64,000 bases of DNA, from IMG/VR virus record IMGVR_UViG_3300031873_001030; one strand, written 5' to 3'. The notes below the pieces were generated by a model. It did not search any database, had not been told where the DNA came from, and was given only the letters and a program-made list of their open reading frames with translations. This DNA is from a virus (Duplodnaviria > Heunggongvirae > Uroviricota > Caudoviricetes). This document shows, one piece after another, positions 4,011 to 52,300 of the stretch. Numbering within the stretch: position 1 is the stretch's first letter; the number at the start of each line of letters is the position of its first letter. A program made the position numbers and the translations under genes.

Positions 4011-4895
4011 ATGGCACTATGGGATAGGGAAGAAAGAAAGCATACGGAAAATAAAGTATTGCCACTCAAGGATATAGTATTTGATGAGAACATATATCCA
4101 AGACAAAGTTCATGGTGGCAAACTTCGTATAAATATGCCGAAGAGATGAAAGCAGGCGCAAGGTTTCCTCCAATCACAGTAGGTTTTGTGAATGGAAGAT
4201 ACGTGCTTGTGGATGGGAAGCATAGGAATGACGCACTTCTGATGAATAAGGAGACACATACATCAGTAGTAGTTCTCTATGGTTACACTTTGGATGAACT
4301 CTATATTGAAGCTGTAAAACTCAATAGGGCTCACGGTGTAGGACTTACTTCTTTCGACAAGGTCAAGATAATCAAGAGACTTGAAGATATGAAATATTCA
4401 TTGGGAGACATAGCCACGATAGTCCAGATTCCTTTGGGAAGCATAGAGAAATTTGTAGCACAGAGGATTACGTTAAATCCATTAGGACAAGTCACAGTAT
4501 TGAAATCTCCTCTCAAGTTTATGGCAGGAGGAACTATAACGATGACTGACGAAGAGCAAGATACTCTAAGTGTGAGGAGTGAGATAAGTCTGGTAAATCA
4601 GATGACACAGATATTCTCAAATCCGAAGATGCTAAGGGTTGATATAACATTCGTTGATGCTATCGAGAAGCTTTACCAACTGATTCAAGATTTCCTCAAA
4701 GAACAGAAAATTTTGAATGGAGCTGGAAATACAATAGAAGAAGTTCCAAAAGAGAAAATATACAAGAAAAGAGGAAGACCTAAGAAAATCAAGACTGAAA
4801 GTGAGACTTCAGAACCAAAGAAAAAGGGAAGACCTAAAGGTTCTAAGAACAAGCTTAAAGAACTTGATGTCAGTAACGTCAAAGAACAAGCATAA
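4011..4895 (+). CDS. ParB-like nuclease-domain protein with C-terminal AT-hook motifs
   Basis: N-terminal region with VDGKHRNDAL resembles the ParB/Srx catalytic motif; C-terminus carries two KRGRPKK/KKGRPKG AT-hooks. Confidence 0.55.
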   Translation: MALWDREERKHTENKVLPLKDIVFDENIYPRQSSWWQTSYKYAEEMKAGARFPPITVGFVNGRYVLVDGKHRNDALLMNKETHTSVVVLYGYTLDELYIEAVKLNRAHGVGLTSFDKVKIIKRLEDMKYSLGDIATIVQIPLGSIEKFVAQRITLNPLGQVTVLKSPLKFMAGGTITMTDEEQDTLSVRSEISLVNQMTQIFSNPKMLRVDITFVDAIEKLYQLIQDFLKEQKILNGAGNTIEEVPKEKIYKKRGRPKKIKTESETSEPKKKGRPKGSKNKLKELDVSNVKEQA

Positions 4896-4943: not shown

Positions 4944-5016
4944 TGACAACGAACCTCAGAGATAGAACTTACTGATTCTTAGAATCAGTTGGTTCTTACT
5001 GCGAGGTTCGTTGTCA
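4944..5016 (+). repeat. 73-nt stem-loop element family, copy A (14-bp terminal stem TGACAACGAACCTC / GAGGTTCGTTGTCA)
   Basis: Terminal inverted repeat with a compensatory substitution relative to copies B, C and D; begins 49 nt after the ParB-like stop. Confidence 0.6.
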
Positions 5017-5431
5017 TAGTTCCTTCCCTCTTCATACTTTCTTTAATATTAGGGAATTTATAAAAACTGTAGGTTTTTATTATGAGATAAGGTTCGGTTG
5101 GGTCAGTTGGGGTGGGTTCCGTTCCGATATGGTATGGTAAGATTATATTTATTGGACGTGGTAGGATAGGGTAGGATGCGATATGGTATTGTTACTTGTT
5201 CCGATATGGTTCGGTGATTTGGGGTTAGGTTAGGTCTGTTCCGATAGGGCAAGGTATGGTATTTTATTTATTCGATACGGTTCGGTTTGGTGGGTTTGGG
5301 TTAGGCAAGATAAGATAGGGTTAGACAAGGTATCTTACTTTTGTATCCGATTGGGTAAGGTCTGGTAGTATTCGGTCCGTTGTGGTTAGGCACGATATGG
5401 TGTGGTAAGGTTTGACATTTATAGTCAGTCA

Positions 5432-5858: not shown

Positions 5859-6150
5859 AAAATCAAAAAGAGGTAAAAAAAATGAGATACTATTGCCGAG
5901 AACATAAGGAAAGTTTTGAGACTACTGTCTGCTTTCTTCAACATGTTCTTAAGGAACACCATAGCATATTTGACATCACAAGTGAATAGATATTTATGTG
6001 ATGAGGTGGGGTCAAGTCAGGTCGGTTCTGGTTGCGATACTGACCTTATCACACCAAACCTCACCTTACCAGGGTTCGATAAGTTGTGATTTGGTAGGAT
6101 AGGGTAAAGTTATTTATATTTGAAACACGTAATTATATGTCAAGGAAGTC

Positions 6151-6223
6151 TGACAACAAACCTCAGAGTTGGAACTTTCTGGTTCTAAAAAATCACTTAG
6201 TTCTTTCTGCGAGGTTTGTTGTC
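6151..6223 (+). repeat. 73-nt stem-loop element, copy B (stem TGACAACAAACCTC / GAGGTTTGTTGTC)
   Basis: Embedded in the satellite; stem co-varies with copies A and D. Confidence 0.6.
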
Positions 6224-6948
6224 TTTGTATCGACTTTATCATTCGGTCAGGTAAGGCGGGTTCAGGTGGGGTATAGTTTCGGTTCGGTATGGTAGTTTGA
6301 CATTTATACGATACGGTAAGGTGAGGTTTGGAAGATAGTCTTTATGATTCGGTAAGGTGGGGTCAGTTGCGATTGTGTGAGGTTTGATTTGGTTTGGTCT
6401 GATTTGGTAGTTTGAGGCAAGGTAAAGTTAATTCCTTTTATATGATAAGGTATGGTCTAATTCGGTCTGGTTTGGTTGGATGGGCTACGTTCCGATAAGG
6501 TTCGGTATGGTAATATGACACTTATACGATTAGGTTCGGTCAGGTAAGGTTGGGTCAAATGCGATTAGGTAAGATGAGGTTCGGTCAGATACGGCAAGAT
6601 ATGGTATAATATTTATTCGGTTAGGTGAGGTCAGTTTAGGTCTGGTCTGATGTAGTTTGGCATGGTAGTATAACACTTATCGGTTTGGTTCGGTATGATG
6701 CGATATGGTCAGATTCGGTTTGATATGGTAGTATGACACTTATTGGTCAGGTTTAGTAGAATATGGTAAGGTTCGGTTCGATACGGTGGGATATGGTCAG
6801 TTAGGATTTGGAAAAGGAGAGAATAGTTTCAAGAAAGAATCAGCCCTTGGGTGAGTCCCTTGAAATGAAAAATGCCGCACCAGAGATGGTGATATTAGGT
6901 AAACTAATATAAATCAAGGTTCGAACCGTCCGTTAGGCAACGGTTCTC

Positions 6949-7020
6949 TGACAACAAACCTCAGAGTTAGAACTTACTGGTTCTTGAAATCAGTTGGTTC
7001 TTTCTGCGAGGTTTGTTGTC
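6949..7020 (+). repeat. 73-nt stem-loop element, copy C
   Basis: Embedded in the satellite; loop AGAGTTAGAACTTACTGGTTCTTGAAATCAGTTGGTTCTTTCTGC. Confidence 0.6.
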
Positions 7021-7963
7021 TTCCTCCAAAAAATTACTTATTCGATAGGGTAAGGATAGGTATGCTATGTCAGGGTCAGGTTTGGTTAGGTTTGATATGG
7101 TATGGTAAGGTAATTTAATACTTTTGCTTTGGTGCAATATGGTAATATTCGGTAGGGTATAATTCGGTGGGTTCCGTTAAGGTATGGTAAGGATTATATT
7201 TATGAAATACGTATATAGGAATAGAGATGATGAAAGGGAACTTAAATTTGAAGTTCCAGATAGTATGTCAATAGCTGAAGCATTTGAATTTGCAGAAAGG
7301 AAATGCGCCAGCATGGAGTGATTATAATTTTTGGTCTGGTAGGGTGCGATTAGGTACGATTGGGTTTGGTCAGATAGGATATGATATGGACTATTGTAAT
7401 TTTCGGTTAGGTGCGGTTAGGTCTGGTTTGGTGCGTTCGAGGTGTGGTCAGATAGGATATGGAACTTTCATTCGTACTTTTCGGTAGGGCATTATTCGGT
7501 CCGATATGGTCTGGTCAATTCCGCTCTGGTTCGGTTAGATAGTGTATGGTGATATATGTTAAGTCGTGGTTTGGTTCGGTCTGGTAGAATGAGGTTTATC
7601 TTTTTTGATAGGCTATCGTTCGGTCTGGTGAGGTATGGTTCGGTAGGGTTCGGCAAGGTTTAATCCTTTTAGGAAAGGGTCTTTGATTCATTCCCTTTCT
7701 ATAAAAGATTTATCCCACGTCTTCGGGATTTATCCCTTCTTTCAGAAGGGATTTATATATCACCGAATCTCGTTTTAAACGAGATTCACAAAGAACTTGT
7801 GGTCGGGTCTGATACGGCAAGGTGTGATACGGTAAGATAAGATTGGGTTATGGTCTGGCAAGGAACTTTTTACTTATATGGTTTGGCACGGTCCATTCCG
7901 TTGCGTTTAGGTGTGGTAAGGCTTGGTATGGTTACGATTTATTTGGCGTAACATATGTAATAC

Positions 7964-15984: not shown

Positions 15985-16499
15985 CTAAGCTTTCGTATCT
16001 TGACTTCGATGAATGTCTCGGCATCGAAAAACTTTCCAAACTTCAGAGGAATCCATATTATCTTCCCTCTTTTTCCCATCTGACCCACCTTACATCTAAA
16101 ACTTATTTCATTTATCATAAAATATATTAGTTTCATTAGAATATAAAGTTTTAAATTCAATTATAATACAGCAAATAGAAGTGACAATTATACCAAACCC
16201 AAGTTGAGTCACTGAAATGAGGATTTATAGTTCAATCCAATCTTTACAATTTCCACAGAAGTCTCCACCACTCTTACAGCTTCCATCATAAAAATTTTTA
16301 CAACTACTGCAGCATCTCAAGTTTTAACCTATTTTTAGCTTCTTCTTCCAACTTACATATTTCATTTATCGTATACATCACAATAACCTCCACATCTTCA
16401 ATCTGACAGCGAGTTTATACATATTATGCCAAAACCAACTGCCTTCATTCTTTCTCGCAAACATATATATTCCAACATATGTTATCAATGACATAATTG

Positions 16500-16770
16500 T
16501 AAACCACAGATTACCAGACCATACCCGAACCTATAAGACCACATCACACCTGAGCGAAAAGTGTTAACCATACCACATCAGACTTTATCATGCCTTACCA
16601 GTCCTTAACATATCGTAACTTACCACAACGTAGCATAAATGACAATCCATATCTTACCACACACCAACATATCTTACCAAAACCCACCCTAACCCATCTA
16701 ACCCAATCATAAATATAATCCCTATCTTACCAAATCCCATCACAACGGACCCTACCAAATCAGACCCCGT
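16500..16770 (-). repeat. inverted copy of the (GGTNN)n satellite (reads ACC-rich on +), including the CATAAATGACAA and CATAAATATAATCC punctuation units
   Basis: Reverse complement matches the unit structure of the 5091-7925 array; contains degenerate palindrome TTAACATATCGTAA at 16605-16618. Confidence 0.8.
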
Positions 16771-16868
16771 TAAATAATTATAAGTTTCCCTTTAAAGAAA
16801 CATGGAAGAGGACTTGTTCCTCTTCCCAACCAAATAATACCTTCTTGCCCTCTAAGTCAGTTACTTCT

Positions 16869-17171
16869 TTATCGAATAAAAACGTCGAAAGCTTTTGCCT
16901 TTCGTCCGCTTTTAGTTGAAACTAGACCCTTGAAGACAATTTTCAGTTCCTGACCAATTTTCACTGAACCCATCTGTCTCTCTAAAATCATAGAACCAAA
17001 GACAGTTCTGACTTTTCCAGTGTTGTCTTTGATGTCGTAGACTCTGGACTTACTTCCATCTGGCCTGAAGTAATTTCCATCTCGAATTTGCATGAGAGTT
17101 CCTTCCAGTGAGTCGTCTTCATTTTCGAATCTGAATATTTCTCCACTTGTAGATTGCCAATTTCCTGGCAT
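16869..17171 (-). CDS. hypothetical protein (100 aa)
   Basis: ORF track. Confidence 0.35.
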   Translation of the reverse strand: MPGNWQSTSGEIFRFENEDDSLEGTLMQIRDGNYFRPDGSKSRVYDIKDNTGKVRTVFGSMILERQMGSVKIGQELKIVFKGLVSTKSGRKAKAFDVFIR

Positions 17172-17440
17172 GAATTATCAACTCCATTATTAATTAATAG
17201 AAACTATCAGTCTCTATCTAGATTATTTCATAACTTGGGAATAGTCTAGAATACAGACAAGCTCTTCAGTCTATATAAACATAATTGAAATCTGTGAGAT
17301 AAACTTCAGAAACTTTATCTCATGACTTATATCTTTCAAGATAAAGTTTCCCTGATAGAAAAGAGTATTTATAATCAAACATCAATATAATGACCGATAG
17401 CTTTTTAAAGCTATGCTTTATGTGATAAAGGAGAATAGGA

Positions 17441-17638
17441 ATGATAATAGACTATGGCAAGTTGAAAGGAAAGAAAGTGAAATTGTTATGCGTATTTGAA
17501 GGTCTGAGTCAGACTATCTATTACGATGGCATAATACTAGATTCATCTGAAGTCAATAAGGTTGTGACCATATCAGATAGATTTAGCAAGACAGTTCACA
17601 TTGATATGGATAGTATAAAACAAGTGGTAGAGTTATGA
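17441..17638 (+). CDS. hypothetical small protein (65 aa)
   Basis: ORF with AAGGAGAA upstream. Confidence 0.3.
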   Translation: MIIDYGKLKGKKVKLLCVFEGLSQTIYYDGIILDSSEVNKVVTISDRFSKTVHIDMDSIKQVVEL

Positions 17639-17742: not shown

Positions 17743-18933
17743 ATGACGTTGAAGAATCTTGTAACGCCATTGGAACTTAAGACTCTCTGGGATTCTGAAT
17801 ATTACAAATCAATATTGACAGCTACAGCTAGCAGCTGCCAATTTGGAAGGATAAGAGAACACCAACGTAATAATACATTCAAAGAAATCAGAGCCAATCT
17901 GAATGCTCTGATAGTTGGAGAATATGGAATTGGGAAATCCACAATGTTGGACATTAAGAATGTCCCAATAGTCAGGGCTAATACAGTTTCAGTTGCTGGA
18001 CTAGCTGGAACTACGACAAGAAGTGGGGAACACGTTATTGGAGCTGCATATAAAGCTAATAATAAATTACTAATTATAGATGACGTTGGTAGTGGTGAAA
18101 ATTCTTATATAGATAATTCTGTAAAACGATGCATGAATCTGCTATTGGAACCTCCGCATACTTTTTCACGAATGTTAGGATTTAAGATGAACATTCCTGT
18201 GAAAGAGAAGAAGGGTGGAGCTTGGGTGAAAGGAAGTGAGAATCAGTTTACATTGCGTTCTAAGTTCAGTTGCATCGTAGCTACAACATCAGTTGTAATT
18301 CGAAATACTGATGACAAAGCTTGGATGTCAAGATTCGTACCAGTAAAACTACATGGTAGTGTGGATTACATGTTTGAATTTTTATCTGGTTCTAATCCAT
18401 TTACAATTACTGGTTTGAATCGGAAAGTCAAGTTATTTGAATTTCCAGATTATCTGGAATTCTTGGAATTCTATGAAGAACATTTTCGTGGAAGTCTGTG
18501 GGAGAAAAGCATAATAGAAAAGGAAGATGAAGTCGGTTCTATAGCGAGAAATACTGGTGACTTGGTAAGATTGGCTGCTTTCAATTGCGCTGTCGATGAT
18601 AGAATAAATATAGAATTTGAAGATGCCAAGAAAGTTTTTGATAGGTTCTACAATCAGATATGGTTCAATATCCAAGTTGGACCACTGACTCATGAACAAT
18701 ATAGAGTTCTATTACTTCTCAATAAGAAGTTGACTGAAGATGAGATAGCAGAAACTATACAAAGGTCACAGCCTTACGTATCTAAGATGATAGAGAAATT
18801 TGAAAGTAAGGGAATACTTGTAGACAGAAAAGTTGCGAAAGAAGTTGAAAACTTTAAACAAACTTCATGGGAAAAACTCGAACCACAGCAGACTTTATCA
18901 GAATCTGTAAAGTTAGATGGTAGTCATGAGTGA
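17743..18933 (+). CDS. mini-MCM-like AAA+ helicase core with C-terminal winged helix (no N-terminal OB/zinc domain)
   Basis: Walker A LIVGEYGIGKST; MCM-like GLAGTTTRSGEH...LLIIDDVGSGEN block; arginine-finger-like SRFVPVKL; C-terminal wH LTEDEIAETIQRSQPYVSKMIEKFESKGIL. Confidence 0.5.
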   Translation: MTLKNLVTPLELKTLWDSEYYKSILTATASSCQFGRIREHQRNNTFKEIRANLNALIVGEYGIGKSTMLDIKNVPIVRANTVSVAGLAGTTTRSGEHVIGAAYKANNKLLIIDDVGSGENSYIDNSVKRCMNLLLEPPHTFSRMLGFKMNIPVKEKKGGAWVKGSENQFTLRSKFSCIVATTSVVIRNTDDKAWMSRFVPVKLHGSVDYMFEFLSGSNPFTITGLNRKVKLFEFPDYLEFLEFYEEHFRGSLWEKSIIEKEDEVGSIARNTGDLVRLAAFNCAVDDRINIEFEDAKKVFDRFYNQIWFNIQVGPLTHEQYRVLLLLNKKLTEDEIAETIQRSQPYVSKMIEKFESKGILVDRKVAKEVENFKQTSWEKLEPQQTLSESVKLDGSHE

Positions 18934-19184
18934 TTATAAAGATAAATTGCATTATAGTGAACGTGATGATAGATATTACACAATGAGTGACTATGAAAAA
19001 AAATATCGACAAACTAAAAAGTACAAGGAATATAGAAAAAAATATCGGAAAAAACTGAAAGAGAAAAGGTTGATGAGAAGTTACAAATGATATTACAAAA
19101 TCGGCGCGCGCAAGTTTAACTAAAGCTATTAGCTGATGTGATGAGACTACTATGTAGGAGTAATGCTATATGAAGAACTCTAAG

Positions 19185-19520
19185 TAGTAAAAATAAAAAA
19201 ATTATATAATATATATATTAGAGTATATGAATGAAATCGTTGTTGGAGTTAAGGCGTAGAATGTCTCCGTTGGGGTAATTCATCTAGTCTGTATAGAGTA
19301 GAGGAAGAATATTCCAAATCGCAGAACATAGAGAGAGAGAGAGAGAAAATCTTGACTTCTTGTTTTGCCAAATGGAATATTTTGCTAGTAGTCTATAAAG
19401 ACTAGATGAACAAGGCTAACGGAGACAATTTACGCCTTCTTTCCAATAACGAAAAACGCAGTTTTTTTGCCAAAAATGATATTGAAAAAAGCCACTTTTT
19501 CGTTGTTTTTTGAAACAGCA
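19185..19520. other. candidate replication origin: AT-rich tract followed by a 190-bp imperfect palindrome (arms 19251-19330 and 19355-19438) around a (GA)8 centre
   Basis: Arms include AAGGCGTAGAATGTCTCCGTTGG vs the reverse complement of CTAACGGAGACAATTTACGCCTT, CATCTAGTCT vs AGACTAGATG, and AATATTCCAAAT vs ATTCCATTTGGCAAAAC (ORB-like TTCCA...TGG..AAAC); no ORFs; immediately downstream of the MCM-like gene. Confidence 0.4.
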
Positions 19521-19672
19521 CTAAATTCATAGACTAGTAGTAAAAAAAACTCAAATTAAGTATATGCTTCAAAACATACTTCATATGATATAATTTAACG
19601 AAGGATGACATTTCATGCATTGAAGATATTTAAACTTGAAAAACGAAAGTTATCATTAGTTTAAGTGATAAG

Positions 19673-20074
19673 ATGTTGGAAGAAAAACATAAAGGTTCTT
19701 CAAGTTTTTTACTGATTTTGCTTGGAATTTTTATTGGTGTAGCTATTATGTTTTTGATTGGTTTCATTTCAGATTCAAATCCAGATTTTGATTCACCTTC
19801 AGTCAAACTTTTGGGAACTTGGCAGACTTTCATACCAATCAATGGTGTTCAGAATTTATTCACATTCAGTTTTGACAAGAACGCTAGCACAATCATAGCT
19901 TCAGAAACTGCATCAGTCAGTGGAAAATATGAGATTAAAGGTTCAAGTCTGACTATCTTCGATTCCAGCAATCAGACAATTTCAGTTTATACTTATCAAT
20001 TTATTACAGATAACTCTTTGAGTCTGATTCAGTCTGGACAAAATTTAGGAATTATTCTGACTAGATTGGCATAA
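19673..20074 (+). CDS. secreted/anchored hypothetical protein (133 aa)
   Basis: N-terminal TM/signal segment FLLILLGIFIGVAIMFLIGFI. Confidence 0.4.
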   Translation: MLEEKHKGSSSFLLILLGIFIGVAIMFLIGFISDSNPDFDSPSVKLLGTWQTFIPINGVQNLFTFSFDKNASTIIASETASVSGKYEIKGSSLTIFDSSNQTISVYTYQFITDNSLSLIQSGQNLGIILTRLA

Positions 20075-24479: not shown

Positions 24480-24601
24480 TGTCAAATTAGAAATGCAATA
24501 CGATTGTTAACAAGAAAGTTAACAAAGTCTCACCTGCCAGAATTGCACCAGCATCTACGAGGCTACAGCTCGTTGTTCTACTGTTGAACTAAGGCGAGTT
24601 G

Positions 24602-24674
24602 TGGGGATGCTGAGATTTGAACTCAGATTATTCGCTTCCAGAGCGAAGGTTCTAACAAGTTATACTACATCCCC
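24602..24674 (-). tRNA. tRNA-Pro (anticodon UGG); D-arm non-canonical by eye
   Basis: Minus-strand read GGGGATG...TTCGC-TCTGGAA-GCGAA...CTGAG-TTCAAAT-CTCAG-CATCCCC-A; acceptor, anticodon and T arms perfect. Confidence 0.6.
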
Positions 24675-24677
24675 AAG

Positions 24678-24751
24678 GGAGAATAGAGGGATTTGAACCC
24701 TCTCTAACAAGTTCACAGCTTGACGTGCTCGCCTACTACACCATATTCTCC
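24678..24751 (-). tRNA. tRNA-His (anticodon GUG) with genome-encoded G-1
   Basis: G-1:C73 pair; acceptor GAGAATA/TATTCTC; D-stem GTGT/GCAC; anticodon loop CTGTGAA; T-arm GAGGG-TTCAAAT-CCCTC; 3 nt from tRNA-Pro. Confidence 0.7.
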
Positions 24752-25212
24752 ATTTTATTATGTTCTTCTCTATGGCAATTTGCACATAGAAGTTTGCATT
24801 TCTGCAATTCTTTTCGTATCACCTCGAGACTATTATGCCATATTCTGGATATTTCATATTTCTTTTCTCCGTTCATATGATGAAATTCAAGTGCTGCGAA
24901 ACATTTGTTATATCCACATTTTTGACATTTACCTCCAAATTCCATTTTCATAATTTTTGTTTTTTCTTGGTTTTTACGCTTTTGTGCTATATACCACAAA
25001 TGTCTCTGAGGGAGAGATGATTTTTGTTTATGTTGTTTTATATATTTTCTCATATATTCTCTATGATATTTTTTCCTTTTTTCTCTGTTTTCAGGGTTTG
25101 ACAACCAAATTTTCCATCGTTCTTTTTCTTGCTCACGGTGTGATTTTCTATATAATCTATTTATTTCACACAATCGTTCTTTGTTTTTTTCATAATATTT
25201 TTTACTGGTCAT
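24736..25212 (-). CDS. HNH endonuclease (158 aa); final 5 codons overlap the 5' end of tRNA-His
   Basis: HNH core CQKCGY...LEFHHMNG...N...CANCHREEHN; basic K/R-rich N-terminus; stop TAG at 24736-24738 lies inside tRNA-His. Confidence 0.6.
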   Translation of the reverse strand: MTSKKYYEKNKERLCEINRLYRKSHREQEKERWKIWLSNPENREKRKKYHREYMRKYIKQHKQKSSLPQRHLWYIAQKRKNQEKTKIMKMEFGGKCQKCGYNKCFAALEFHHMNGEKKYEISRIWHNSLEVIRKELQKCKLLCANCHREEHNKMENMV

Positions 25213-25255
25213 ATAATGTAATTGTTTAATACCATTTATATTTGTTGTTGAACTA

Positions 25256-25330
25256 CGCTCTGGGCAAGACTCGAACTTGCAATTTCTCCGTTAACAGCGG
25301 AGCGCTTGTACCTGTTTAAGCTGCCAGAGC
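25256..25330 (-). tRNA. tRNA-Asn (anticodon GUU)
   Basis: GCTCTGG-CA-GCTT-AAACAGGTAC-AAGC-G-CTCCG-CTGTTAA-CGGAG-AAAT-GCAAG-TTCGAGT-CTTGC-CCAGAGC-G; all stems canonical. Confidence 0.75.
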
Positions 25331-25333
25331 AAG

Positions 25334-25437
25334 TACTCCCCGAATGATTCGAACATTCGTCTCTTGGTTTCTCCAAGTTTCAGATTCTTGTTGAAATTAT
25401 CAAAGCCAAGCATCTTTGTCCACTGGACGAGGGGAGT
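25334..25437 (-). tRNA. tRNA-Gln (anticodon UUG) with A1:U72 pair and a roughly 31-nt intron at position 37/38 (intron about 25368-25398)
   Basis: Acceptor ACTCCCC/GGGGAGT; T-arm GAATG-TTCGAAT-CATTC; anticodon stem CTTGG/CCAAG with loop CTTTGA|intron|A; D-arm fit only approximate. Confidence 0.45.
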
Positions 25438-25469
25438 ATATTGATTGTAGTTCTTTTTAAAAACTATGG

Positions 25470-25545
25470 ACACAAGCGGGAATCGAACTCGCATCTCTTT
25501 CTTGCAAGGGAAGTATCCTACCATTAAACGATTGGCCCGTCATTG
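25470..25545 (-). other. tRNA-like sequence with T-loop TTCGATT that I could not fold into a canonical cloverleaf
   Basis: GCGAG-TTCGATT-CCCGC followed by TTGTGTCCA; no matching 5' acceptor strand found nearby. Confidence 0.2.
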
Positions 25546-44138: not shown

Positions 44139-47100
44139 TTGCCCAATTTGGAGGGTTTTGTAATGGCAAATAGTATTTTTGGTCAGCCTCAGCCAAATCC
44201 ATTTTCACCAGGCACGACATTGCCGTCATCAAATGTAAGTGTGACGCCAAGTATGCCCATTGGTGGATTGACTGTAGGATTAGGAGGAAGTGGAAATGTT
44301 TATTATGGAGGAGCGCCTGCTGGAGGAGTTGGTCAGACTACAACAACAACTGGAGGTCCTGCGATTTATATTCCTCCACAGGAGACTGCAAAAGCAGCAG
44401 AAAAAACAATAACTCCTGCTTTGATTCCTGAAATAAAACCGCCAACTTTAAAAGTTGGTGTCGGCGGATTGGTAGAAGGTTTGGGAAAATCTGGTAATGT
44501 ATATGAAGGTGGTGTGCTTGTTGGAGGTACTACTCCATGGGGTCCTGTAGTTAAGGAAGGTGGTGTCAGTTATGTCCCAACTGGAAGGACAGCTGAAACT
44601 GGAGAGACAATTTATTCTGGAACTCAGATAAGTTCTGCAACACCTATTGGAACTTTTGTGCCTGCAAAGAGAATTGAAATAACTCCACTGATGCCAGAGA
44701 TTAGTGTACAACCAGCTACAGCTGGTGCTATAGGTCTTTCATTTCCTGCAGGTGTTTTGTCTGTAAAATCTGGTCCAGTTGATGTGAGCAAACTTTCTCC
44801 AGATGTGCAGACTGCGTTGGGAAATCTTCAAGGAAAGGTGCAGGCTGAATATCCAGGATTCAAGCTTGCAAGTTGGACTCGTGAAGGTGATGAGCTGAAA
44901 GGTGTTTTGGAACCTGTGAAGTATGTCTCACTTGGAACTGATGTTACGAAAGCGACTGCTGCCATAAAGGATTTGGGATTGAAAGAAGGTGATTATAAAT
45001 TATATACTGGAATTGGTGGGGATTATCAGCTTGTGACTGATAAGGTGTCAAGCCAGAAATACGTGAGTGGTCTTCTTTCCAGTTATTCAGTTATTCCTAT
45101 AACTGGGTATGGACAGTATAGAGGGTCTGATGAGAGGATTGCATTGAAGTTTCTTGATAAGGAAGGTTATATCAAAGATGGTGTGATAAGCAAAGATGTT
45201 CAAGTGATAGGGGATATAGGAGTAGGAGGAACTGGTGCGATGATAGTTTTAAAGGGAAGTACAAAGAGTTCTGAAGATTTGTCAAAGACTTATTTTTCTT
45301 CCTTGACTGAAGTGCAGAAGGAAGATACTGCGATGGCAAGAGGAGAGTTGCAGATTGCTCAGGAAAAGGAACTTTTGAGACAACCTGGTATGAGTGTTGA
45401 AAAGGGAGCTGCTTGGTGGAATTTGAATGTTGGTCCTTATATGCTTTCTCCAAAGGACCCTCTTGGTCTGAGGAGTGCTTACATAGGAGTTGAAGGTTTG
45501 GTAAAAGGAACTCCTGTCAGTGTCATACAAAAGGACATAGAAGCTAGCAGGCTTTCTGCAGAACAGGAATTTCTTCAGAGAAAATATATGGGAGAGTCTT
45601 GGACTAAATCATTATGGGAAGCTCCTGCAACGCAGCCTTTGAAAGTTGCTGCTACTTGGTATGGCGGTGGTCTTTTGTTGGGAGGTGCTGCTGGAGTTCT
45701 TAAAACTGCTGAAGTAGGTGCTGGTATAGTATCAAAAGCTCCATGGCTTGCAACTACAGGAAGAGTTATTTCAACTGCTGGAAAAGTTGCGACAAGTGTT
45801 CCAGGACAAGTTGTAATTGGTTCAGGATTGTATGGTTTTACTGAAAGAGGAAATATAATGGCACTTGCAAAAGGAGGTGTTCCAAGAGACATTGTTCCTG
45901 GAATGATTTTTGACGCATCACAATTTGGATTTGCATATGGCGGTGCAGCTGCAGGTTTTCCAGTTGGTTATTCTAGAGGTGCTGGATTGGGTTATGCTTT
46001 CAAGCCTGGTGCATTGCCTCCATCTGAAACATTCGTGGCAGAAATCAGAGGGACTGGAGTATCTGGAATTCCAGGTGAATTGCAAGGATTGAAACTTGGG
46101 ACAAGGGTTGCTGGAGAAGTTCCAAAGGGTTTTGTTCCAAAAGGATTTAGTGAAGGTGTTCCTTATAGGGCGTTCTTGCAGGAGGGTGTGACAGTTACAA
46201 GAGCTGGAGAAGTTGTACCTTCTGGGACTTTGATGCCAACTATTGCAGAAATGGAACCTGCAAAACCTTTGATGCAGAGGATTGCCACTGCAATGACAAA
46301 GCCAAGCGAATTGATTCCTAAGATGCTTCCTGGAGGACCTACTGTTGAAGCTCCTTTTCTTGAATCAATCAGATATGGTGAAGAAAAGATAGCGAAAGGA
46401 GGAACTAAGGATATTTATGCTGCAGGTTATCAGCCAGGAACTACAATATGGTCAAGATTGAAGATGCCTGTTGAAGGAGCGCAGTATGGGATTGCTGAAG
46501 GTTTTAAGACTGTTACAGCTGAGAGTCCTCTTGCTTCGTTGACAGAAAAATACACTACAAGGATGGCATTGAGAGCTACTGGCGCTCCTATTGAAGCGGG
46601 AGATGTTGTTCCAGTGAAAATAATGGCAAAGACAGATTTTATTGTAAATGATGAAGGGATAGCTGCGATGTTGAAATCTGGAAAGAATCTTGCAGATATT
46701 GAAAAATTGAAAGGTGCTGATATAATACAGCGTGATATTGAATTTGCAGATAAGCCTGCTGTAAGGTACACTAGATTTATTGATAAGGAAACTGGAAAAT
46801 CTTTGGTTGTGTTGAAGCAGACTGCAGCTCCTACAATAGAGGAAGTTGTTGCTTTGGCAGAGGAAGGAAAGACTTTGATAAAACCTGAATATGTTGGAGG
46901 AAAGGTTGCAGGCTATAGTATAAGAGGTACTGAAATAGTTGGAGAGGGGAAAGAATTTGCAGGAGGAGTGCGTTATAAAAAGGGTGTTGAAGTAGTTGGT
47001 AAGGAACAAGTGACAGGAATAGCTCTTGATGATAAGACATTTAACGCATTGATGGATAAATATGGAAACAAGATATTGAGGGTTTCATCTCCGACAACTG

Positions 47101-48161
47101 CAAGAGATATAGCAGCTCTTGAGGCAAGTGCTGAAGGCGGTGTCACAAGAGGGACAAGCGAGCTTTCTGTCATCAGATACGTCTCAAGGGGACAATTTGA
47201 AGATTATCTGAAATCAAGAACTGGAGTAAGTAGTGTGAAGGGTGGTGAATATCCTCCTACTGAAGCTGGAACTTTTGGAACTGTTTCAATTGAAAGGCCT
47301 GAAGTTCCTAGACTTCCTAAGGTACCAGAAGAAAAAATAGTTCCACCTGAAGCTGGAGTTTCAAAAGGAGGTCTTATGTCTGAAGGCGAGAGAGTGATGT
47401 CAATTGCTCTTTCAGAAGAAGTTGGAAGACCAGCAGTCGGATTGGAAGAACGTCCTTTGAGATTCACTGAAAAGTATTTTGGGATGCAAACTCCATCCTT
47501 TGGAGTGACATCTGTTGAAGGTGCAGGGATAATAAGTTCTGACATAGCCATTGCTACAAAGTCTGCTGTTGGAATGCGTGAACAATTAGTTGCAGCTCCA
47601 GAGATTAGTGTTAGAACTATGTTGAAACCATCTGCAATTATGACTAGTGTAAATATTGAGGATGTGTTGCTTAAGATTTCTGAAAGTATTTTAGGCAAGT
47701 TGCAGCCAAGGATAAGTACTGATATCACTGATGTAGGAATGAGGATTGAACCGATAACTTCTCCTATTGTTACAACTAAGGTTACAACTGCTGTTGATAT
47801 AACACCTATACCTATGAATTTGATAGCTCCTATTACAACTTTTAAAGGACCAATTGTGACTGTCAGACCTCCAATAATACCTCCTGGTGGTGGGGGCGGT
47901 GGTGGAGAAGGTAAAAAACCTGAAAGAGAATATTTTGGATATTTCGGTCGTAAAAAAGCAGGAAAGAGAATTTTAAGTTCTGATTTGTTTTCTGTTGCTG
48001 TGTCTCAGGCTGCGTATGGAAAAGCCACTACTCCAAAGTTTAGTAGGAAAGAAGTTTCTGAACTTGAGAGCAGAGGTTTGATAAGAGTTCCTACAGCTGA
48101 GATATCTGGAATCCCAAGTTCTGGAGAATTATTGAAAAGATTGTTAGGAGGTAGAAAATGA
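44139..48161 (+). CDS. large Gly/Val/Thr/Pro-rich protein (1340 aa), structural or surface-associated
   Basis: Recurrent GGSGNVYYGG / GKSGNVYEGG glycine-rich repeats; C-terminal PPIIPPGGGGGGGEGKK; no TM; first gene of a coupled operon. Confidence 0.5.
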   Translation: MPNLEGFVMANSIFGQPQPNPFSPGTTLPSSNVSVTPSMPIGGLTVGLGGSGNVYYGGAPAGGVGQTTTTTGGPAIYIPPQETAKAAEKTITPALIPEIKPPTLKVGVGGLVEGLGKSGNVYEGGVLVGGTTPWGPVVKEGGVSYVPTGRTAETGETIYSGTQISSATPIGTFVPAKRIEITPLMPEISVQPATAGAIGLSFPAGVLSVKSGPVDVSKLSPDVQTALGNLQGKVQAEYPGFKLASWTREGDELKGVLEPVKYVSLGTDVTKATAAIKDLGLKEGDYKLYTGIGGDYQLVTDKVSSQKYVSGLLSSYSVIPITGYGQYRGSDERIALKFLDKEGYIKDGVISKDVQVIGDIGVGGTGAMIVLKGSTKSSEDLSKTYFSSLTEVQKEDTAMARGELQIAQEKELLRQPGMSVEKGAAWWNLNVGPYMLSPKDPLGLRSAYIGVEGLVKGTPVSVIQKDIEASRLSAEQEFLQRKYMGESWTKSLWEAPATQPLKVAATWYGGGLLLGGAAGVLKTAEVGAGIVSKAPWLATTGRVISTAGKVATSVPGQVVIGSGLYGFTERGNIMALAKGGVPRDIVPGMIFDASQFGFAYGGAAAGFPVGYSRGAGLGYAFKPGALPPSETFVAEIRGTGVSGIPGELQGLKLGTRVAGEVPKGFVPKGFSEGVPYRAFLQEGVTVTRAGEVVPSGTLMPTIAEMEPAKPLMQRIATAMTKPSELIPKMLPGGPTVEAPFLESIRYGEEKIAKGGTKDIYAAGYQPGTTIWSRLKMPVEGAQYGIAEGFKTVTAESPLASLTEKYTTRMALRATGAPIEAGDVVPVKIMAKTDFIVNDEGIAAMLKSGKNLADIEKLKGADIIQRDIEFADKPAVRYTRFIDKETGKSLVVLKQTAAPTIEEVVALAEEGKTLIKPEYVGGKVAGYSIRGTEIVGEGKEFAGGVRYKKGVEVVGKEQVTGIALDDKTFNALMDKYGNKILRVSSPTTARDIAALEASAEGGVTRGTSELSVIRYVSRGQFEDYLKSRTGVSSVKGGEYPPTEAGTFGTVSIERPEVPRLPKVPEEKIVPPEAGVSKGGLMSEGERVMSIALSEEVGRPAVGLEERPLRFTEKYFGMQTPSFGVTSVEGAGIISSDIAIATKSAVGMREQLVAAPEISVRTMLKPSAIMTSVNIEDVLLKISESILGKLQPRISTDITDVGMRIEPITSPIVTTKVTTAVDITPIPMNLIAPITTFKGPIVTVRPPIIPPGGGGGGGEGKKPEREYFGYFGRKKAGKRILSSDLFSVAVSQAAYGKATTPKFSRKEVSELESRGLIRVPTAEISGIPSSGELLKRLLGGRK

Positions 48162-49388: not shown

Positions 49389-52300
49389 ATGCATTGGAAA
49401 CATTTACTTACTCATAAGTCTCTTTTTCTGGAGGGGATTCGAATCAGTATAAGATTGTCAAAGGCAACTGTAAAGATTACAAGCTTGATATTCGCATTGG
49501 CTCTGATTGGAACTTTTGGCTATCTTTTTATCTCCAATGTCAGCAACAAAGTGAGTGGAGATTCTTATAATGACATAAATATGAGTGATATAGTCAATAA
49601 TACTATAGTGACAGCATCTAGTTATTCGAATTATGAATATGAGGTGACTAAAAATGTATACAAGACTTATTTCCAAGACAATATCAATTCAGGTGAAGCT
49701 GTAAGGTTTGAGAAGGATGGATATTATTTCATATATGATTTGAGTGGTGGAAAGATTCAGTGGGCAGAACAAGATGGAAACCCTACGAAGACAAAGTCCA
49801 TAGGAGCAATATTATCTTCTCCGATAAGTCTTGCTGGTGATAAAGTTTATTACAATGATGCTTTTGCATATACAAATGTGAGTTATCTTATCTTGAATGA
49901 CATGCTCAAAGAGAATTTCATATTGTCATCATCGTTGCCGATAGATGACACATACTTGTATTTGGAATATACTGGTGAGATAAAGCATTCGGATAGTCTG
50001 ATGATTTATGCAAATGATAAGAATCAGACTGAAAAGAATTTTGTAACTCAAGGTAAGATAGAATTCAAGGATGTAAATGGAACTACGATATTTTTCTTAC
50101 CAGCACCTACAGTAACTGATTCGAATGGAAAGTCGGAATATGGTTTTTATGATATAAAAATTTCCAGTGGAAAGATTGCATTCAATCTTAGAGTGAACAG
50201 CACTTTCTTGAAAAATGCCGCTTACCCAGTGTATATAGACCCAACTATTAGAACTTTCAATGATACATTATCATCAAAAAACTTGACATTTATATGGAAT
50301 CAGAATCAGACACTTTATATATCAATACCAAAAAATGCTATAGTTACAAATGCTTACTTGAATTTGAGTGGATTCCCGGCACAGAATAATGTAAATTTCT
50401 TTGACCCCTTAGACAATGGAAATTATATTAGTTCAACCAATGCTATAGTAAGTGGCGGGCAAATAACATTAAATCGTCAAAACAATACAGGGGAAAGTTT
50501 TACTTCACCTCCCTGCAGTGAAATACAATATATAGGCGGTACCGTACCAGGTACTTATGCAACTGCACAATCCTTTAGAGCATCGGGTGTGTATCTTTCA
50601 TATATTAAAGTCAAGTTCTTCAATCAAGTCACCGCAACATTATCAATAAGGTCGAGTTTAGCTGGAGCCAATCTTGTTTCTACAAGTGTTGCAAGCGGAG
50701 ATGAGAGATATTATGAATGGTATATCACAAACCCACCAGCGCTCACTGTTGGTAATACTTACTACATAGTTCTTACATGGAGTTCTGACGGAAGCAATTA
50801 TGGAGGCTTGAGACAGGCTTGCTACAATTATTTGTATCCGAACGGAACTTATTATGCTTACTTGTTAAGTTCCTGGAACACTGAACCGAATGGGGCTTAC
50901 TATGACCATGCTTTTGAAACAAAATACTGGGAGTATGATACAAGCAATTATGTTAATTCAGTTGCAATAGACACCACATCATATTATTTGAATGCAACCT
51001 TAACAAAATCAGATAACATACCAGCAGGAACATCAATAACTTATTATTTAAGTTCAAATGGTGGCGCGTCTTGGGAACAAGTCACCTCAGGCATAAATCA
51101 TACATTCTCTAATATCGGGCAAGATATCAGATGGAGAGGAGTATTGACAACAAATTCTGATAGGTCATCAACACCAACACTTTATAACATGACTGTGAAT
51201 GCATCTCAAGGGTATTGGCCAATGAATCCTTATCTTGATATTTCTGGGGATGGAGACGTGGAATGGAATTATACAGGAACATTTAATCAATCAAACAATA
51301 GGACAGCAAACTTATCCTCTGAAATAAACACATATTTGTCGACTTGTACACCAACAAGTGGGAATTGCACAATGCCATTAGTATTCCATTCAGATACAGC
51401 AGGAATAATTCAGGTTTCAGATATCAACATAACATATAATGTGCCTTTTATATCGGTTTGGAATACTTCAAAGGCAGGAACTAGCAACTCTACACAGATT
51501 GAATTGCCTTTATACAATGGAGGCACTTATGCATTTACAGTGGACTGGGGTGATGGAACAACAGATTACATCACTTCATATCTGAATGATAACCACACTT
51601 ATGCGACAGCAGGGGTTTACGTTGTGAACATAGCTGGGACTATAAATGGATTCAGGTTCAACAATGGTGGCGACAGATTAAAGATTATCAACATCACACA
51701 ATGGGGAGACTTGAATGTAGGAAATTCTGGTAATTATTTTCACGGTTGTGCTAATTTGAATAGCAATGCCACTGATAACTTGAATTTGGCAGGAACTACG
51801 GATTTGTCTAATATGTTTTATTCAGCTACTTCCTTCAATGGAAGTATTTCAGGCTGGGATACAAGTGGTGTCACTTCCATGTATACTATGTTCTATGGCG
51901 CTTCTAATTTTAATTCGAATATTTCAAGCTGGAATACAGGAAATGTAATCAATATGGAATATATGTTTTATACCGCTTCTTCCTTTAATCAGAATATTTC
52001 AAACTGGAATACAGGAAAAGTCACTAGTATGTTAAGTATGTTTCATGGTGCCACTTCTTTCAATCAGAACATAAGCAATTGGGATGTCAGTAAAGTCACT
52101 ACTATGTCTGATATGTTTCATAGTGCTACTTCCTTCAATGGAAATATTTCAGGCTGGAATGTAGTCAATGTCACTACTATGTATGATATGTTCCATAGTG
52201 CCACTTCTTTCAATCAGAGTATGAGTAGTTGGAATACAGGAAATGTTGCTACTATGTTTTCCATGTTTTATGGTGCTACTGCTTTCAATGGCAATATTTC

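What the first reader, a model, noticed from the sequence alone, without database searches (positions are those of the whole stretch)
17743..19520. Mini-MCM-like helicase followed by a 190-bp imperfect palindrome with (GA)8 centre and ORB-like motifs: candidate replication origin
The 396-aa protein keeps the MCM-type AAA+ core (Walker A GEYGIGKST, the GLAGTTTRSGEH...IIDDV block, an SRF arginine-finger-like motif) and a C-terminal winged helix. It lacks the N-terminal OB/zinc domain, as seen for MCM copies carried by archaeal mobile elements. In the 740-bp ORF-free gap immediately downstream there is an AT-rich tract (19185-19245). After it, two roughly 80-bp arms (19251-19330 and 19355-19438, about 75% complementary) surround AGAGAGAGAGAGAGAG. 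The arms contain TTCCAAAT / TTCCATTTGGCAAAAC elements resembling the archaeal mini-ORB consensus TTCCAGTGGAAAC, and a third related unit lies at 19528-19545. An origin adjacent to its initiator or helicase gene is the expected layout for an archaeal replicon or integrated element.
Basis: partly seen in the sequence, partly recalled or inferred. Interest (0 to 1): 0.65.

Follow-up and report, generated by a model that had tools for sequence, protein, structure and literature searches.

The report
MCM-like helicase with adjacent palindromic origin candidate
An uncultivated, probably archaeal, virus or plasmid encodes a shortened MCM-type replication helicase, and just downstream lie its most AT-rich tract and its strongest DNA palindrome, which is most likely where the element starts copying itself, a known layout in a new protein family.

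Summary

The palindrome is real: arms 19237-19328 and 19361-19452, 76% complementary, with a (GA)8 centre. It is the strongest fold outlier in the 64 kb on both strands, and it abuts the single most AT-rich 50-nt tract of the window.

Two relatives with only 32-41% identical MCM-like proteins carry a long hairpin in the same position. Both have the same ATATTCCAWWT box and a simple-repeat centre. More distant relatives have repeat-rich gaps beside the gene, or a DNA polymerase gene directly after it.

The best reading is a self-loading initiator-helicase with its own origin immediately downstream, as in SaPI Rep/ori and pRN1. This is not proven.

- The "ORB-like" label is weak: only TTCCA is shared with mini-ORB.
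- The gap holds a conserved 57-aa ORF.
- The "third unit" is a copy of a different arm segment.
- The plus-strand G:U excess is explained by genome composition, so nothing specifically supports an RNA.

The parts
16869..17171 (-). Conserved 100-aa gene, transcribed divergently from the helicase operon. Function unknown.
   Evidence: It is present at the same position in L001, L002, L004, L006, L008 and L009 at 57-82% identity, so it is more conserved than the MCM-like protein. It has no Pfam, PHROG or PDB match.
17172..17440 (.). Divergent promoter region carrying conserved TATA-like boxes (CTATATAAAC and GTATTTATA).
   Evidence: The boxes stand out in an alignment of six relatives. TAGTCTRTA-like motifs cluster here and in the palindrome.
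17441..17638 (+). Conserved 65-aa gene upstream of the helicase gene. Function unknown.
   Evidence: 42-71% identity across five relatives at the same position. No significant PDB match.
17743..18933 (+). MCM-clade AAA+ ATPase (residues about 40-300) plus C-terminal winged helix (about 315-362). It has no N-terminal OB/Zn domain. Proposed initiator-helicase.
18917..19090 (+). 57-aa lysine/arginine-rich ORF overlapping the helicase stop codon. Probably a real small gene.
   Evidence: A KKYRQ-repeat ORF lies at the same position in L001. No Pfam hit.
19102..19118 (.). Motif CGGCGCGCGCAAGTTTA, an alternating GC run in a 36% GC genome.
   Evidence: Conserved as TCGCGCGCGCAAGTTTA downstream of the helicase gene in L141, a lineage 71% identical in protein.
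19188..19237 (.). AT-rich tract (92% AT). Candidate DNA-unwinding element and/or TATA-type promoter.
   Evidence: It is the most AT-rich 50-nt window of the 64 kb. The 16-mer TATAATATATATATTA is identical in L008, 20-30 nt upstream of its hairpin.
19237..19328 (.). Left arm of the palindrome. Contains the ATATTCCAAAT box (19308-19320) and TAGTCTGTATAG (19285-19296).
19329..19360 (.). Non-palindromic centre with (GA)8 at 19331-19346.
   Evidence: In L008 and L009 the corresponding centre is (TA)n.
19361..19452 (.). Right arm of the palindrome. Contains GTTTTGCCAAATGGAATATTTTGC (inverted TATTCCA box plus a TTTTGCCA box) and TAGTCTATAAAGACTAG.
19445..19507 (.). Second, small hairpin (23-nt arms, 74% complementary) with T/A runs and a second TTTTTGCCAAAAATGATATT box. 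Possibly a terminator.
   Evidence: inverted repeat I2, direct repeat D4.
19526..19545 (.). Inverted third copy of arm segment 19380-19399.
   Evidence: I3, 85% complementary.

Best explanation
The region is the replication module of an uncultivated, probably archaeal, virus or plasmid.

The 396-aa protein is an MCM-clade AAA+ ATPase that has lost the canonical N-terminal OB/zinc domain and kept a C-terminal winged helix. It most likely works as a self-loading initiator-helicase.

Proposed mechanism (inferred):
1. The winged helix recognises the short boxes (ATATTCCAWWT, and perhaps TTTTGCCA and GTCTGTA) that lie in inverted orientation in the two arms of the 215-bp palindrome directly downstream of its gene.
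2. Two rings assemble on either side of the easily distorted centre, (GA)8 here and (TA)n in relatives. The neighbouring 92%-AT tract helps, and cruciform extrusion may help too.
3. The duplex opens and the host replisome is recruited. Some relatives encode their own DNA polymerase.

Shown: the fold and motifs of the protein; the palindrome and AT tract and their extremity within the window; and the conservation of a hairpin, a box and a simple-repeat centre next to the gene in divergent relatives.

Inferred: DNA binding by the winged helix, helicase activity, and origin function.
For: Protein:
- The Walker A Lys, Walker B Asp, SRF arginine and lid arginine are invariant.
- In relatives L011 and L012 the gene is directly followed by a DNA polymerase gene (phrog_262, E 2e-34 and 1.5e-54).

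Site:
- It is the top fold outlier on both strands of the 64 kb.
- It is contiguous with the most AT-rich 50-mer of the window.
- L008 (41% identical protein) has a roughly 240-nt nested palindrome 650 nt downstream of its gene, with a (TA)8-A11 centre. It is the top fold outlier of that locus.
- L009 (32% identical) has a 100-nt hairpin with GTATTCCAAAAT and a (TA)6 centre just downstream of its gene.
- Five of the seven TATTCCA boxes in the 9-kb L008 locus lie within 325 bp of that intergenic region, as inverted pairs.
- L006 has a 1-kb gap with GGCGTTAG/CTTACGCC inverted repeats that share the core found at the base of the window hairpin.
- L144 has four CCCTCGTGA-type direct repeats (three of them exact) in the gap downstream of its gene.
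- Arm sequences differ between relatives while palindromy is kept.

Precedents:
- The SaPI ori lies immediately downstream of rep. Its Reps are initiator-helicases with a winged helix, and one type belongs to SF6, the MCM superfamily (PMC9371898).
- The pRN1 origin is a 100-nt stem-loop downstream of its rep gene, preceded by a terminator hairpin (PMC4234260).
Against: - There is no replication data of any kind.
- GC skew tracks gene orientation. Its local minimum is at about 17 kb, at the divergent promoter 2 kb upstream, not at the palindrome.
- A second repeat-rich, ORF-poor region at 5.0-8.0 kb next to a ParB-like gene could hold an origin or centromere.
- The second most AT-rich tract lies at 16117.
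- In this lineage Walker B reads DD instead of the family's DE, which may weaken ATP hydrolysis.
- More distant relatives (L005, L011, L012) lack a downstream hairpin.
- The TAGTCTRTA motif overlaps a TATA-like promoter box, so its clustering may reflect promoters rather than initiator sites.
Confidence: 0.55

Rival explanations
1. The palindrome is transcribed from the AT-rich, TATA-like tract into a long hairpin RNA of about 215 nt. The RNA could be a regulatory or decoy dsRNA, a replication primer RNA, or a structured 5' leader of the downstream gene.
For: - The plus-strand RNA fold is 23 kcal/mol better than the minus-strand fold, with 9 G:U pairs against 1 A:C.
- A TATA-like 16-mer lies 20-30 nt upstream of the hairpin base and is identical in L008.
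- A T7 run follows 10 nt after the hairpin.
- Archaeal-type TATA boxes appear to be used elsewhere in the module.
Against: - The strand asymmetry is not special. Across the window the plus strand folds 8.3 +/- 11.8 kcal/mol better per 240 nt because G exceeds C, and the hairpin's difference is z -0.98.
- L008 shows no G:U excess, and its minus strand folds slightly better.
- No Rfam family matches, even at E <= 10.
- Conserved short sequence boxes in inverted pairs, together with simple-repeat centres, look like protein-binding DNA.
- The genes downstream of the hairpin in the window and in L008 are unrelated.
Confidence: 0.13
2. The region is only a transcription boundary between the helicase operon and the next gene. 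On this reading it holds terminators, promoters and operator sites, and the palindrome acts as a bidirectional terminator, insulator or operator. It has no origin function.
For: - It lies between co-directional genes.
- T runs and a second small hairpin follow it.
- TATA-like sequences lie inside and beside it.
- L009 has a clear terminator-like perfect hairpin flanked by A7/T6 directly after the gene.
Against: - Arms of 92 nt are far beyond any known terminator.
- In L009 the terminator-like hairpin is separate from the TATTCCA hairpin, the same two-hairpin layout as pRN1, where only the second is the origin.
- This reading does not explain the coincidence with the most extreme AT tract of the window, or the conservation of the architecture beside a replication gene.
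Confidence: 0.15
3. The site is a physical genome end or processing site, such as a packaging start, a hairpin-telomere resolution site or a recombination site. It appears internal here because the contig derives from a circular or concatemeric form.
For: Four contigs from three close-relative lineages (L001; L002 and L141, two assemblies of one lineage; L004) all end 41-262 bp downstream of the MCM-like gene. Two of them end inside a TA-rich tract.
Against: - The centre is not palindromic, whereas a telomere resolvase needs dyad symmetry at the cut.
- No recombinase, protelomerase or terminase was detected nearby.
- The flanks are not inverted duplicates.
- Two assemblies read straight through the site.
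- Contig breaks at AT-rich, simple-repeat or hairpin DNA, and at the repeated TTAACATATGTTAA element (L002), are a sufficient technical explanation.
Confidence: 0.07
4. It is a decaying palindromic insertion, either a MITE-like element or a remnant of an inverted duplication, with no function.
For: The complementarity is imperfect (76%), and the element is single-copy with a simple-repeat centre.
Against: - There is no second copy in the window or in any fetched locus.
- Hairpins occupy the syntenic position in relatives whose arm sequences have diverged while pairing is kept. That is the signature of selection, not decay.
Confidence: 0.05

Closest known systems
[quoted passage not shown] 2010, as cited in PMC4889955 and PMC6563490)
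   Different: It has no N-terminal OB/zinc domain and is only 396 aa. It scores below the Pfam MCM gathering threshold (17.0 vs 23.3 bits). Walker B is DD in this lineage. The family (about 135 clusters at 50% identity) is entirely metagenomic and unnamed.
SaPI Rep self-loading initiator-helicases and their ori (S. aureus pathogenicity islands; Rep2 is SF6/MCM-type), and the SCCmec Cch helicase
   Same: One polypeptide combines an AAA+ helicase with a winged-helix origin reader. [quoted passage not shown]
pRN1 plasmid origin (Sulfolobus)
   Same: A long stem-loop downstream of the replication protein gene is the origin. A separate terminator hairpin can precede it. The Rep protein has a C-terminal winged helix (PMC4234260).
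   Different: The pRN1 Rep is a prim-pol fused to an SF3 helicase. Its stem-loop is about 100 nt, whereas this one is about 215 nt with inverted boxes and a simple-repeat centre.
Archaeal chromosomal oriC with ORB/mini-ORB elements bound by Orc1/Cdc6
   Same: Inverted recognition elements around an easily melted segment, next to a replication gene. A TTCC-containing box.
   Different: The mini-ORB core TTCC...GAA is not reproduced; only TTCCA is shared. The neighbouring gene is MCM-like, not orc1/cdc6. The arms are complementary over 92 nt, not just at the boxes.
SV40 large T antigen / papillomavirus E1 core origins
   Same: This is a comparison of working logic, from my own knowledge. An initiator-helicase assembles as two hexamers on inverted short boxes in a palindromic core flanked by an AT tract.

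Membership tests
MCM (canonical) | AAA+ core with Walker A GxxGxGK[ST] | tested here: met
   GEYGIGKST. K65 is invariant in 66 family members and aligns to MCM GDPGTSKS.
MCM (canonical) | Walker B hhhhDE | tested here: inconclusive
   D113 is invariant. The family has E at the next position in at least 90% of members, but this protein and its two closest relatives have D (LLIIDDV).
MCM (canonical) | SRF(D) arginine finger and sensor-2 arginine in the lid | tested here: met
   R197 (AWMSRF) aligns to MCM LLSRFDL. R269 aligns to the R of MCM PRQLESLIRL. Both are invariant.
MCM (canonical) | Helix-2 insert and pre-sensor-1 beta-hairpin | tested here: inconclusive
   The AF2 model has beta strands at 89-91/97-99 (between Walker A and B) and 140-172 (after Walker B). 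MCMs are the top fold matches. No residue-level superposition was inspected.
MCM (canonical) | N-terminal domain with OB fold and zinc finger | tested here: not met
   Only about 50 residues precede Walker A. MCM matches start at the AAA+ tier, chain residues about 320-450.
MCM (canonical) | Pfam PF00493 gathering score | tested here: not met
   17.0 bits against a cut-off of 23.3 for this protein. 32 of 66 family members match at E <= 0.01, best 7.9e-9.
MCM (canonical) | Hexameric 3'-5' helicase activity | not testable with these tools
   Needs purified protein.
Self-loading initiator-helicase with adjacent ori (SaPI Rep type) | AAA+ helicase and winged-helix DNA-binding domain in one chain | tested here: met
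   AAA+ core plus MarR/TrmB-type wHTH at residues 315-362.
Self-loading initiator-helicase with adjacent ori (SaPI Rep type) | Repeat-bearing, AT-rich ori directly downstream of the gene | tested here: inconclusive
   The layout is present here and in L008, L009, L006 and L144. Origin activity is untested.
Self-loading initiator-helicase with adjacent ori (SaPI Rep type) | Specific binding of the protein to its ori | not testable with these tools
   Needs EMSA or footprinting.
ORB/mini-ORB Orc1-dependent archaeal origin | ORB core with conserved TTCC and GAA motifs (13-bp mini-ORB such as TTCCAGTGGAACT) | tested here: not met
   The boxes read ATATTCCAAATCG, TTCCATTTGGC (window), TTCCAAAATG and TTCCATATTCC (L008). 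TTCCA is shared and the GAA half is absent.
ORB/mini-ORB Orc1-dependent archaeal origin | Adjacent orc1/cdc6 gene | tested here: not met
   No Orc1/Cdc6 family hit among the called genes of the 21 kb around the site.
pRN1-type stem-loop origin | Long stem-loop downstream of the rep gene | tested here: met
   Compare PMC4234260.
pRN1-type stem-loop origin | Rep protein = prim-pol + SF3 helicase | tested here: not met
   The protein is MCM-clade (SF6) with no primase-polymerase domain.
Any described RNA family (Rfam 15) | Covariance-model match | tested here: not met
   Only tRNAs reach the gathering score in the window. In 18900-19700, nothing scores better than E 2.4.

The most novel reading that the evidence does not exclude
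The roughly 350-400-aa 'AAA+ tier plus winged helix' proteins form an undescribed branch of the MCM clade that works without the N-terminal DNA-encircling tier. On this reading the protein loads itself at a cruciform-prone palindromic origin whose centre is a simple repeat ((GA)n or (TA)n). That would be a replicon type not yet characterised in archaeal viruses or plasmids. In this lineage the DD Walker B variant might make the protein more of an origin-melting switch than a processive helicase.
Probability: 0.35. Interest if true: 0.6.

Novelty: new variant of a known kind. Interest (0 to 1): 0.45.

Why it matters
Origins of replication are known experimentally for very few archaeal viruses and plasmids, and none is known for the uncultivated lineages that dominate metagenomes.

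This finding offers a compact candidate minimal replicon, about 17.2-19.6 kb of the window: promoter, two small conserved genes, an MCM-like initiator-helicase and a palindromic site. It could be tested directly and could seed vectors for archaea that are not yet tractable.

The protein family also bears on a mechanistic question: what an MCM AAA+ tier can do without the N-terminal domain, which in cellular MCMs provides ring assembly, the double-hexamer interface and DNA handling. It also shows convergence with the self-loading helicases of bacterial islands.

Tried and rejected
- Single-sequence searches found nothing useful. Pfam gave only sub-threshold MCM and HTH hits, PHROGs nothing, PDB phmmer nothing useful, and tblastn against phage and plasmid collections nothing.
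- AF2 with a 3-sequence alignment failed (pLDDT 30). It succeeded only with 66 family members.
With 10 sequences it returned 6 metagenome loci, none from genome contigs and none from viral contigs.
- The pattern scan ATATTCCAAA-N40-70-TGGAATATTTT hit 8 viral and more than 120 genome stretches from unrelated bacteria. None encodes the protein or resembles the site. The pattern was too unspecific and consumed the last genome scan.
- A homologue search with the downstream 133-aa protein, intended to reach the hairpin from the other side, found only the protein itself.
- RNA-specific selection, suggested by the G:U excess, was rejected after the genome-wide control and the L008 comparison.
- The 100-aa and 65-aa neighbours could not be identified by Pfam, PHROG or PDB profile searches. 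My guesses that they are OB-like and Sm-like remain untested.
- The TAGTCTRTA motif is not enriched window-wide (37 observed vs 32.5 expected). It is only clustered locally and overlaps a TATA-like box, so I do not count it as an initiator site.
- Host and element type remain unresolved. No capsid, terminase or integrase was detected.
Full report
**1. What is in the sequence**

Directly downstream, the repeat finder reports one inverted repeat with arms 19237-19328 and 19361-19452. The arms are 92 nt, 76% complementary, and separated by 32 nt that include (GA)8 at 19331-19346.

- As RNA the plus strand folds at -108.7 kcal/mol (z -13.9) and the minus strand at -85.3 (z -12.2). As DNA it folds at -54.2 (z -11.6). 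No shuffle reached these values.
- It is the only inverted repeat of that size in the window.
- In a sliding 240-nt scan corrected for GC it is the strongest outlier on both strands (z -5.7 and -3.5).
- The tract 19188-19237 is 92% AT and is the most AT-rich 50-nt window of the entire 64 kb.
- An independent assembly (L003) is identical across the whole gap, so the palindrome is not an assembly artefact.

- A 57-aa basic ORF (18917-19090) overlaps the helicase stop and is conserved in a relative. The non-coding gap is about 580 bp, not 740 bp.
- The 'third unit' at 19528-19545 is an inverted copy of arm segment 19380-19399, not a TTCC box.

**2. The protein**

On its own the sequence gives only sub-threshold hits: Pfam MCM at 17.0 bits against a cut-off of 23.3, and MarR/TrmB at residues 315-362.

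An exhaustive HMMER search found 135 cluster representatives (72 at E <= 1e-10), mostly 330-400 aa. In a 66-member alignment, K65, D113, R197 and R269 are invariant.

- The family profile hits MCM AAA+ domains first in the PDB: MCM4 at 2.2e-14 and archaeal MCMs at 4e-13. The alignment runs through Walker A, Walker B, LLSRFDL and the lid arginine. RuvB follows at 1.4e-8.
- 32 of 66 members match Pfam MCM, and many match wHTH families.
- With the 66-sequence alignment AlphaFold gives pLDDT 88.7 and pTM 0.86.
- The Foldseek top 50 PDB hits are all MCM subunits.

The protein is therefore an MCM-clade AAA+ ATPase with a C-terminal winged helix and no N-terminal OB/zinc tier. It is not a canonical MCM.

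One detail stands out. This protein and its two closest relatives have DD where the family has DE in Walker B.

A replicative role is supported by gene neighbourhood. In L011 and L012 the homologue is immediately followed by a DNA polymerase gene.

**3. Comparative evidence on the site**

The gene order is conserved in L001, L002/L141, L004, L006, L008 and L009: a 100-aa gene on the minus strand, then a 65-aa gene, then the MCM-like gene.

L008 (41% identical protein, 66-kb contig):
- It has a small ORF overlapping the helicase stop, then an 855-bp gap.
- The gap contains nested inverted repeats 5830-5874/6026-6070 and 5886-5924/5976-6014.
- Together these form a hairpin of about 240 nt with a (TA)8...A11 centre. 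It folds at z -9.0 and -10.9 on the two strands and is the top fold outlier of that locus.

L009 (32% identical protein):
- It has a terminator-like perfect hairpin right after the gene.
- It then has a 100-nt hairpin enclosing GTATTCCAAAAT and (TA)6.

Shared elements:
- The box ATATTCCAWWT occurs as an inverted pair in the window (19310+, 19373-).
- In L008 it occurs five times within 325 bp, out of seven in 9 kb.
- It occurs in the L009 hairpin, and in the repeat-rich gap upstream of the gene in L010.
- A 16-mer TATAATATATATATTA is identical in the window and in L008, 20-30 nt before the hairpin.

Outside the boxes the arms are not alignable, yet both elements remain palindromic. Pairing or symmetry is therefore what is conserved.

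Other relatives carry different repeats beside the gene:
- L006 has a 1-kb gap with GGCGTTAG/CTTACGCC inverted repeats sharing the core at the base of the window hairpin.
- L144 has four CCCTCGTGA-type direct repeats, three of them exact.
- L142 has CGTATA repeats and a C8/G7 inverted pair upstream.
- L010 and L011 have 0.9-1.0-kb ORF-free, inverted-repeat-rich regions upstream.

Lineage-specific repeats next to a conserved replication gene are what co-evolving initiator-origin pairs look like.

**4. RNA or DNA?**

The plus-strand fold advantage and the 9 G:U against 1 A:C pairs first suggested an RNA.

- The control shows that the plus strand folds 8.3 +/- 11.8 kcal/mol better per 240 nt across the whole window, because G exceeds C. 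The hairpin's difference is only z -0.98.
- L008 has no such bias.
- Rfam has no match.

I therefore find no RNA-specific evidence. A TATA-like tract at the right distance and a following T7 run keep a transcribed hairpin, or a transcription-primed origin, possible.

**5. Skew and alternatives**

GC skew in the window follows gene orientation. The local cumulative minimum is at about 17 kb, where transcription diverges. This neither locates nor excludes an origin at 19.3 kb.

The 5.0-8.0 kb region next to a ParB-like gene is an unusual repeat field (section 7). It could be a centromere or another origin.

Four contigs from three close-relative lineages end 41-262 bp after the gene.
- Two of them stop inside TA-rich sequence.
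- One stops at a dispersed repeat.
- I read this as assembly failure at AT-rich or hairpin DNA, but physical ends cannot be excluded.

**6. Comparison with known systems**

The logic matches self-loading initiator-helicases:
- SaPI Reps combine an AAA+ helicase (SF3 or SF6/MCM-type) with a winged helix. Their ori lies immediately downstream of rep, and they are thought to load two hexamers either side of an AT-rich region (PMC9371898).
- The pRN1 origin is a 100-nt stem-loop downstream of its rep gene, separate from a terminator hairpin, and its Rep has a C-terminal winged helix (PMC4234260).
- MCM genes on archaeal viruses and plasmids are well known (PMC4889955; PMC6563490).

The resemblance to mini-ORB is limited to TTCCA. 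The conserved GAA half is absent (PMC1904270), and no Orc1/Cdc6 gene is nearby.

**7. Context**

The element is unclassified.
- There is no DNA or protein match in the phage or plasmid collections.
- No capsid or terminase was found.
- It carries 4-5 tRNA genes, an ERCC4 nuclease, a ParB-like protein, several methyl- and glycosyltransferases and a 3752-aa DUF285 protein.
- The MCM-clade protein, the ERCC4 nuclease and the TATA-like conserved promoter boxes suggest an archaeal host. This is not shown.

**8. Verdict**

The origin interpretation is the best-supported reading (about 0.55) but is unproven, and the ORB analogy is weak.

This is a new variant of a known kind: an MCM-clade, NTD-less, winged-helix initiator-helicase family paired with a long palindromic candidate origin. 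It is of moderate interest, and the proposed minimal replicon can be tested directly.

Noticed in passing
window 5080-5430, 5990-6790, 7040-7200, 7330-7660, 7800-7960 (+ strand); 16500-16850 (as NNACC, - strand): About 2.2 kb of strictly 5-nt-periodic degenerate (GGTNN)n arrays. GGT autocorrelation is 3-6x at lags 5, 10 ... 30 and about 0 at other lags. The arrays come in blocks that end in AT-rich spacers, are nearly ORF-free, lie next to a ParB-like gene (4011-4895), and are always in the sense of the flanking genes. None was found in the held parts of related loci. They could be a centromere array, a protein-sponge RNA or an iteron field; this is unexplained and possibly more unusual than the assigned finding.
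   Followed up: partly
window 4944-5016, 6151-6224, 6950-7020: Three copies of a hairpin of about 73 nt (arms about 33-36 nt, TGACAAC[GA]AACCTCAGAG...CTGCGAGGTT[CT]GTTGTCA) embedded in the GGTNN field. They are the next-strongest fold outliers of the window after the palindrome.
   Followed up: partly
window 700, 988, 1575, 1613, 2314, 2359, 2425, 2491, 5478, 5823, 12361, 12398, 24416, 24466; also L002/L141 just after the helicase gene: The palindromic 14-mer TTAACATATGTTAA occurs 14 times exactly (16 with up to 2 mismatches, against 0.9 expected). It is often paired 40-130 bp apart, and two copies extend to CCATTAACATATGTTAATGAGAAA. It is probably a promoter or operator element of the mobile element.
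   Followed up: partly
window 16869-17171 (-) and 17441-17638 (+): The 100-aa protein is more conserved across relatives (57-82% identity) than the MCM-like protein (31-75%). The 65-aa protein is 42-71% identical. Neither matches Pfam, PHROGs or PDB. They are probably core partners of the replication module.
   Followed up: partly
L001, L002, L141, L004 (contig ends): Four contigs from three close-relative lineages (L002 and L141 are two assemblies of one lineage) terminate 41-262 bp downstream of the MCM-like gene. L141 and L004 end inside TA-rich sequence just before where the hairpin would be.
   Followed up: partly
window 18079-18084 (residues D113-D114): Walker B is DD in this protein and its two closest relatives, whereas at least 90% of the family has DE. 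This may affect ATP hydrolysis.
   Followed up: no
L011 4827-6869; L012 776-2914: In two relatives about 31% identical, the MCM-like gene is followed directly by a DNA polymerase gene of 680-712 aa (phrog_262, E 2e-34 and 1.5e-54).
   Followed up: yes
L144 5150-5330: Four CCCTCGTGA-type direct repeats (three exact, one variant GCCTCGTGG) lie in the 264-bp gap downstream of the MCM-like gene of a 138-kb contig.
   Followed up: no
window 24527-25538 (-): A cluster of tRNA genes: Tyr-GTA, Pro-TGG, His-GTG and Asn-GTT, plus a fifth weak Rfam tRNA hit at 25468-25538.
   Followed up: no
window 49389-60647 (+) and 44139-48161 (+): A giant 3752-aa ORF with repeated DUF285 (BspA-like) domains (E 2.8e-138), and a 1340-aa ORF with no Pfam hit.
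   Followed up: no
window 16117-16166: The second most AT-rich 50-nt tract of the window (90% AT), in the ORF-poor stretch 16161-16868 upstream of the replication module.
   Followed up: no
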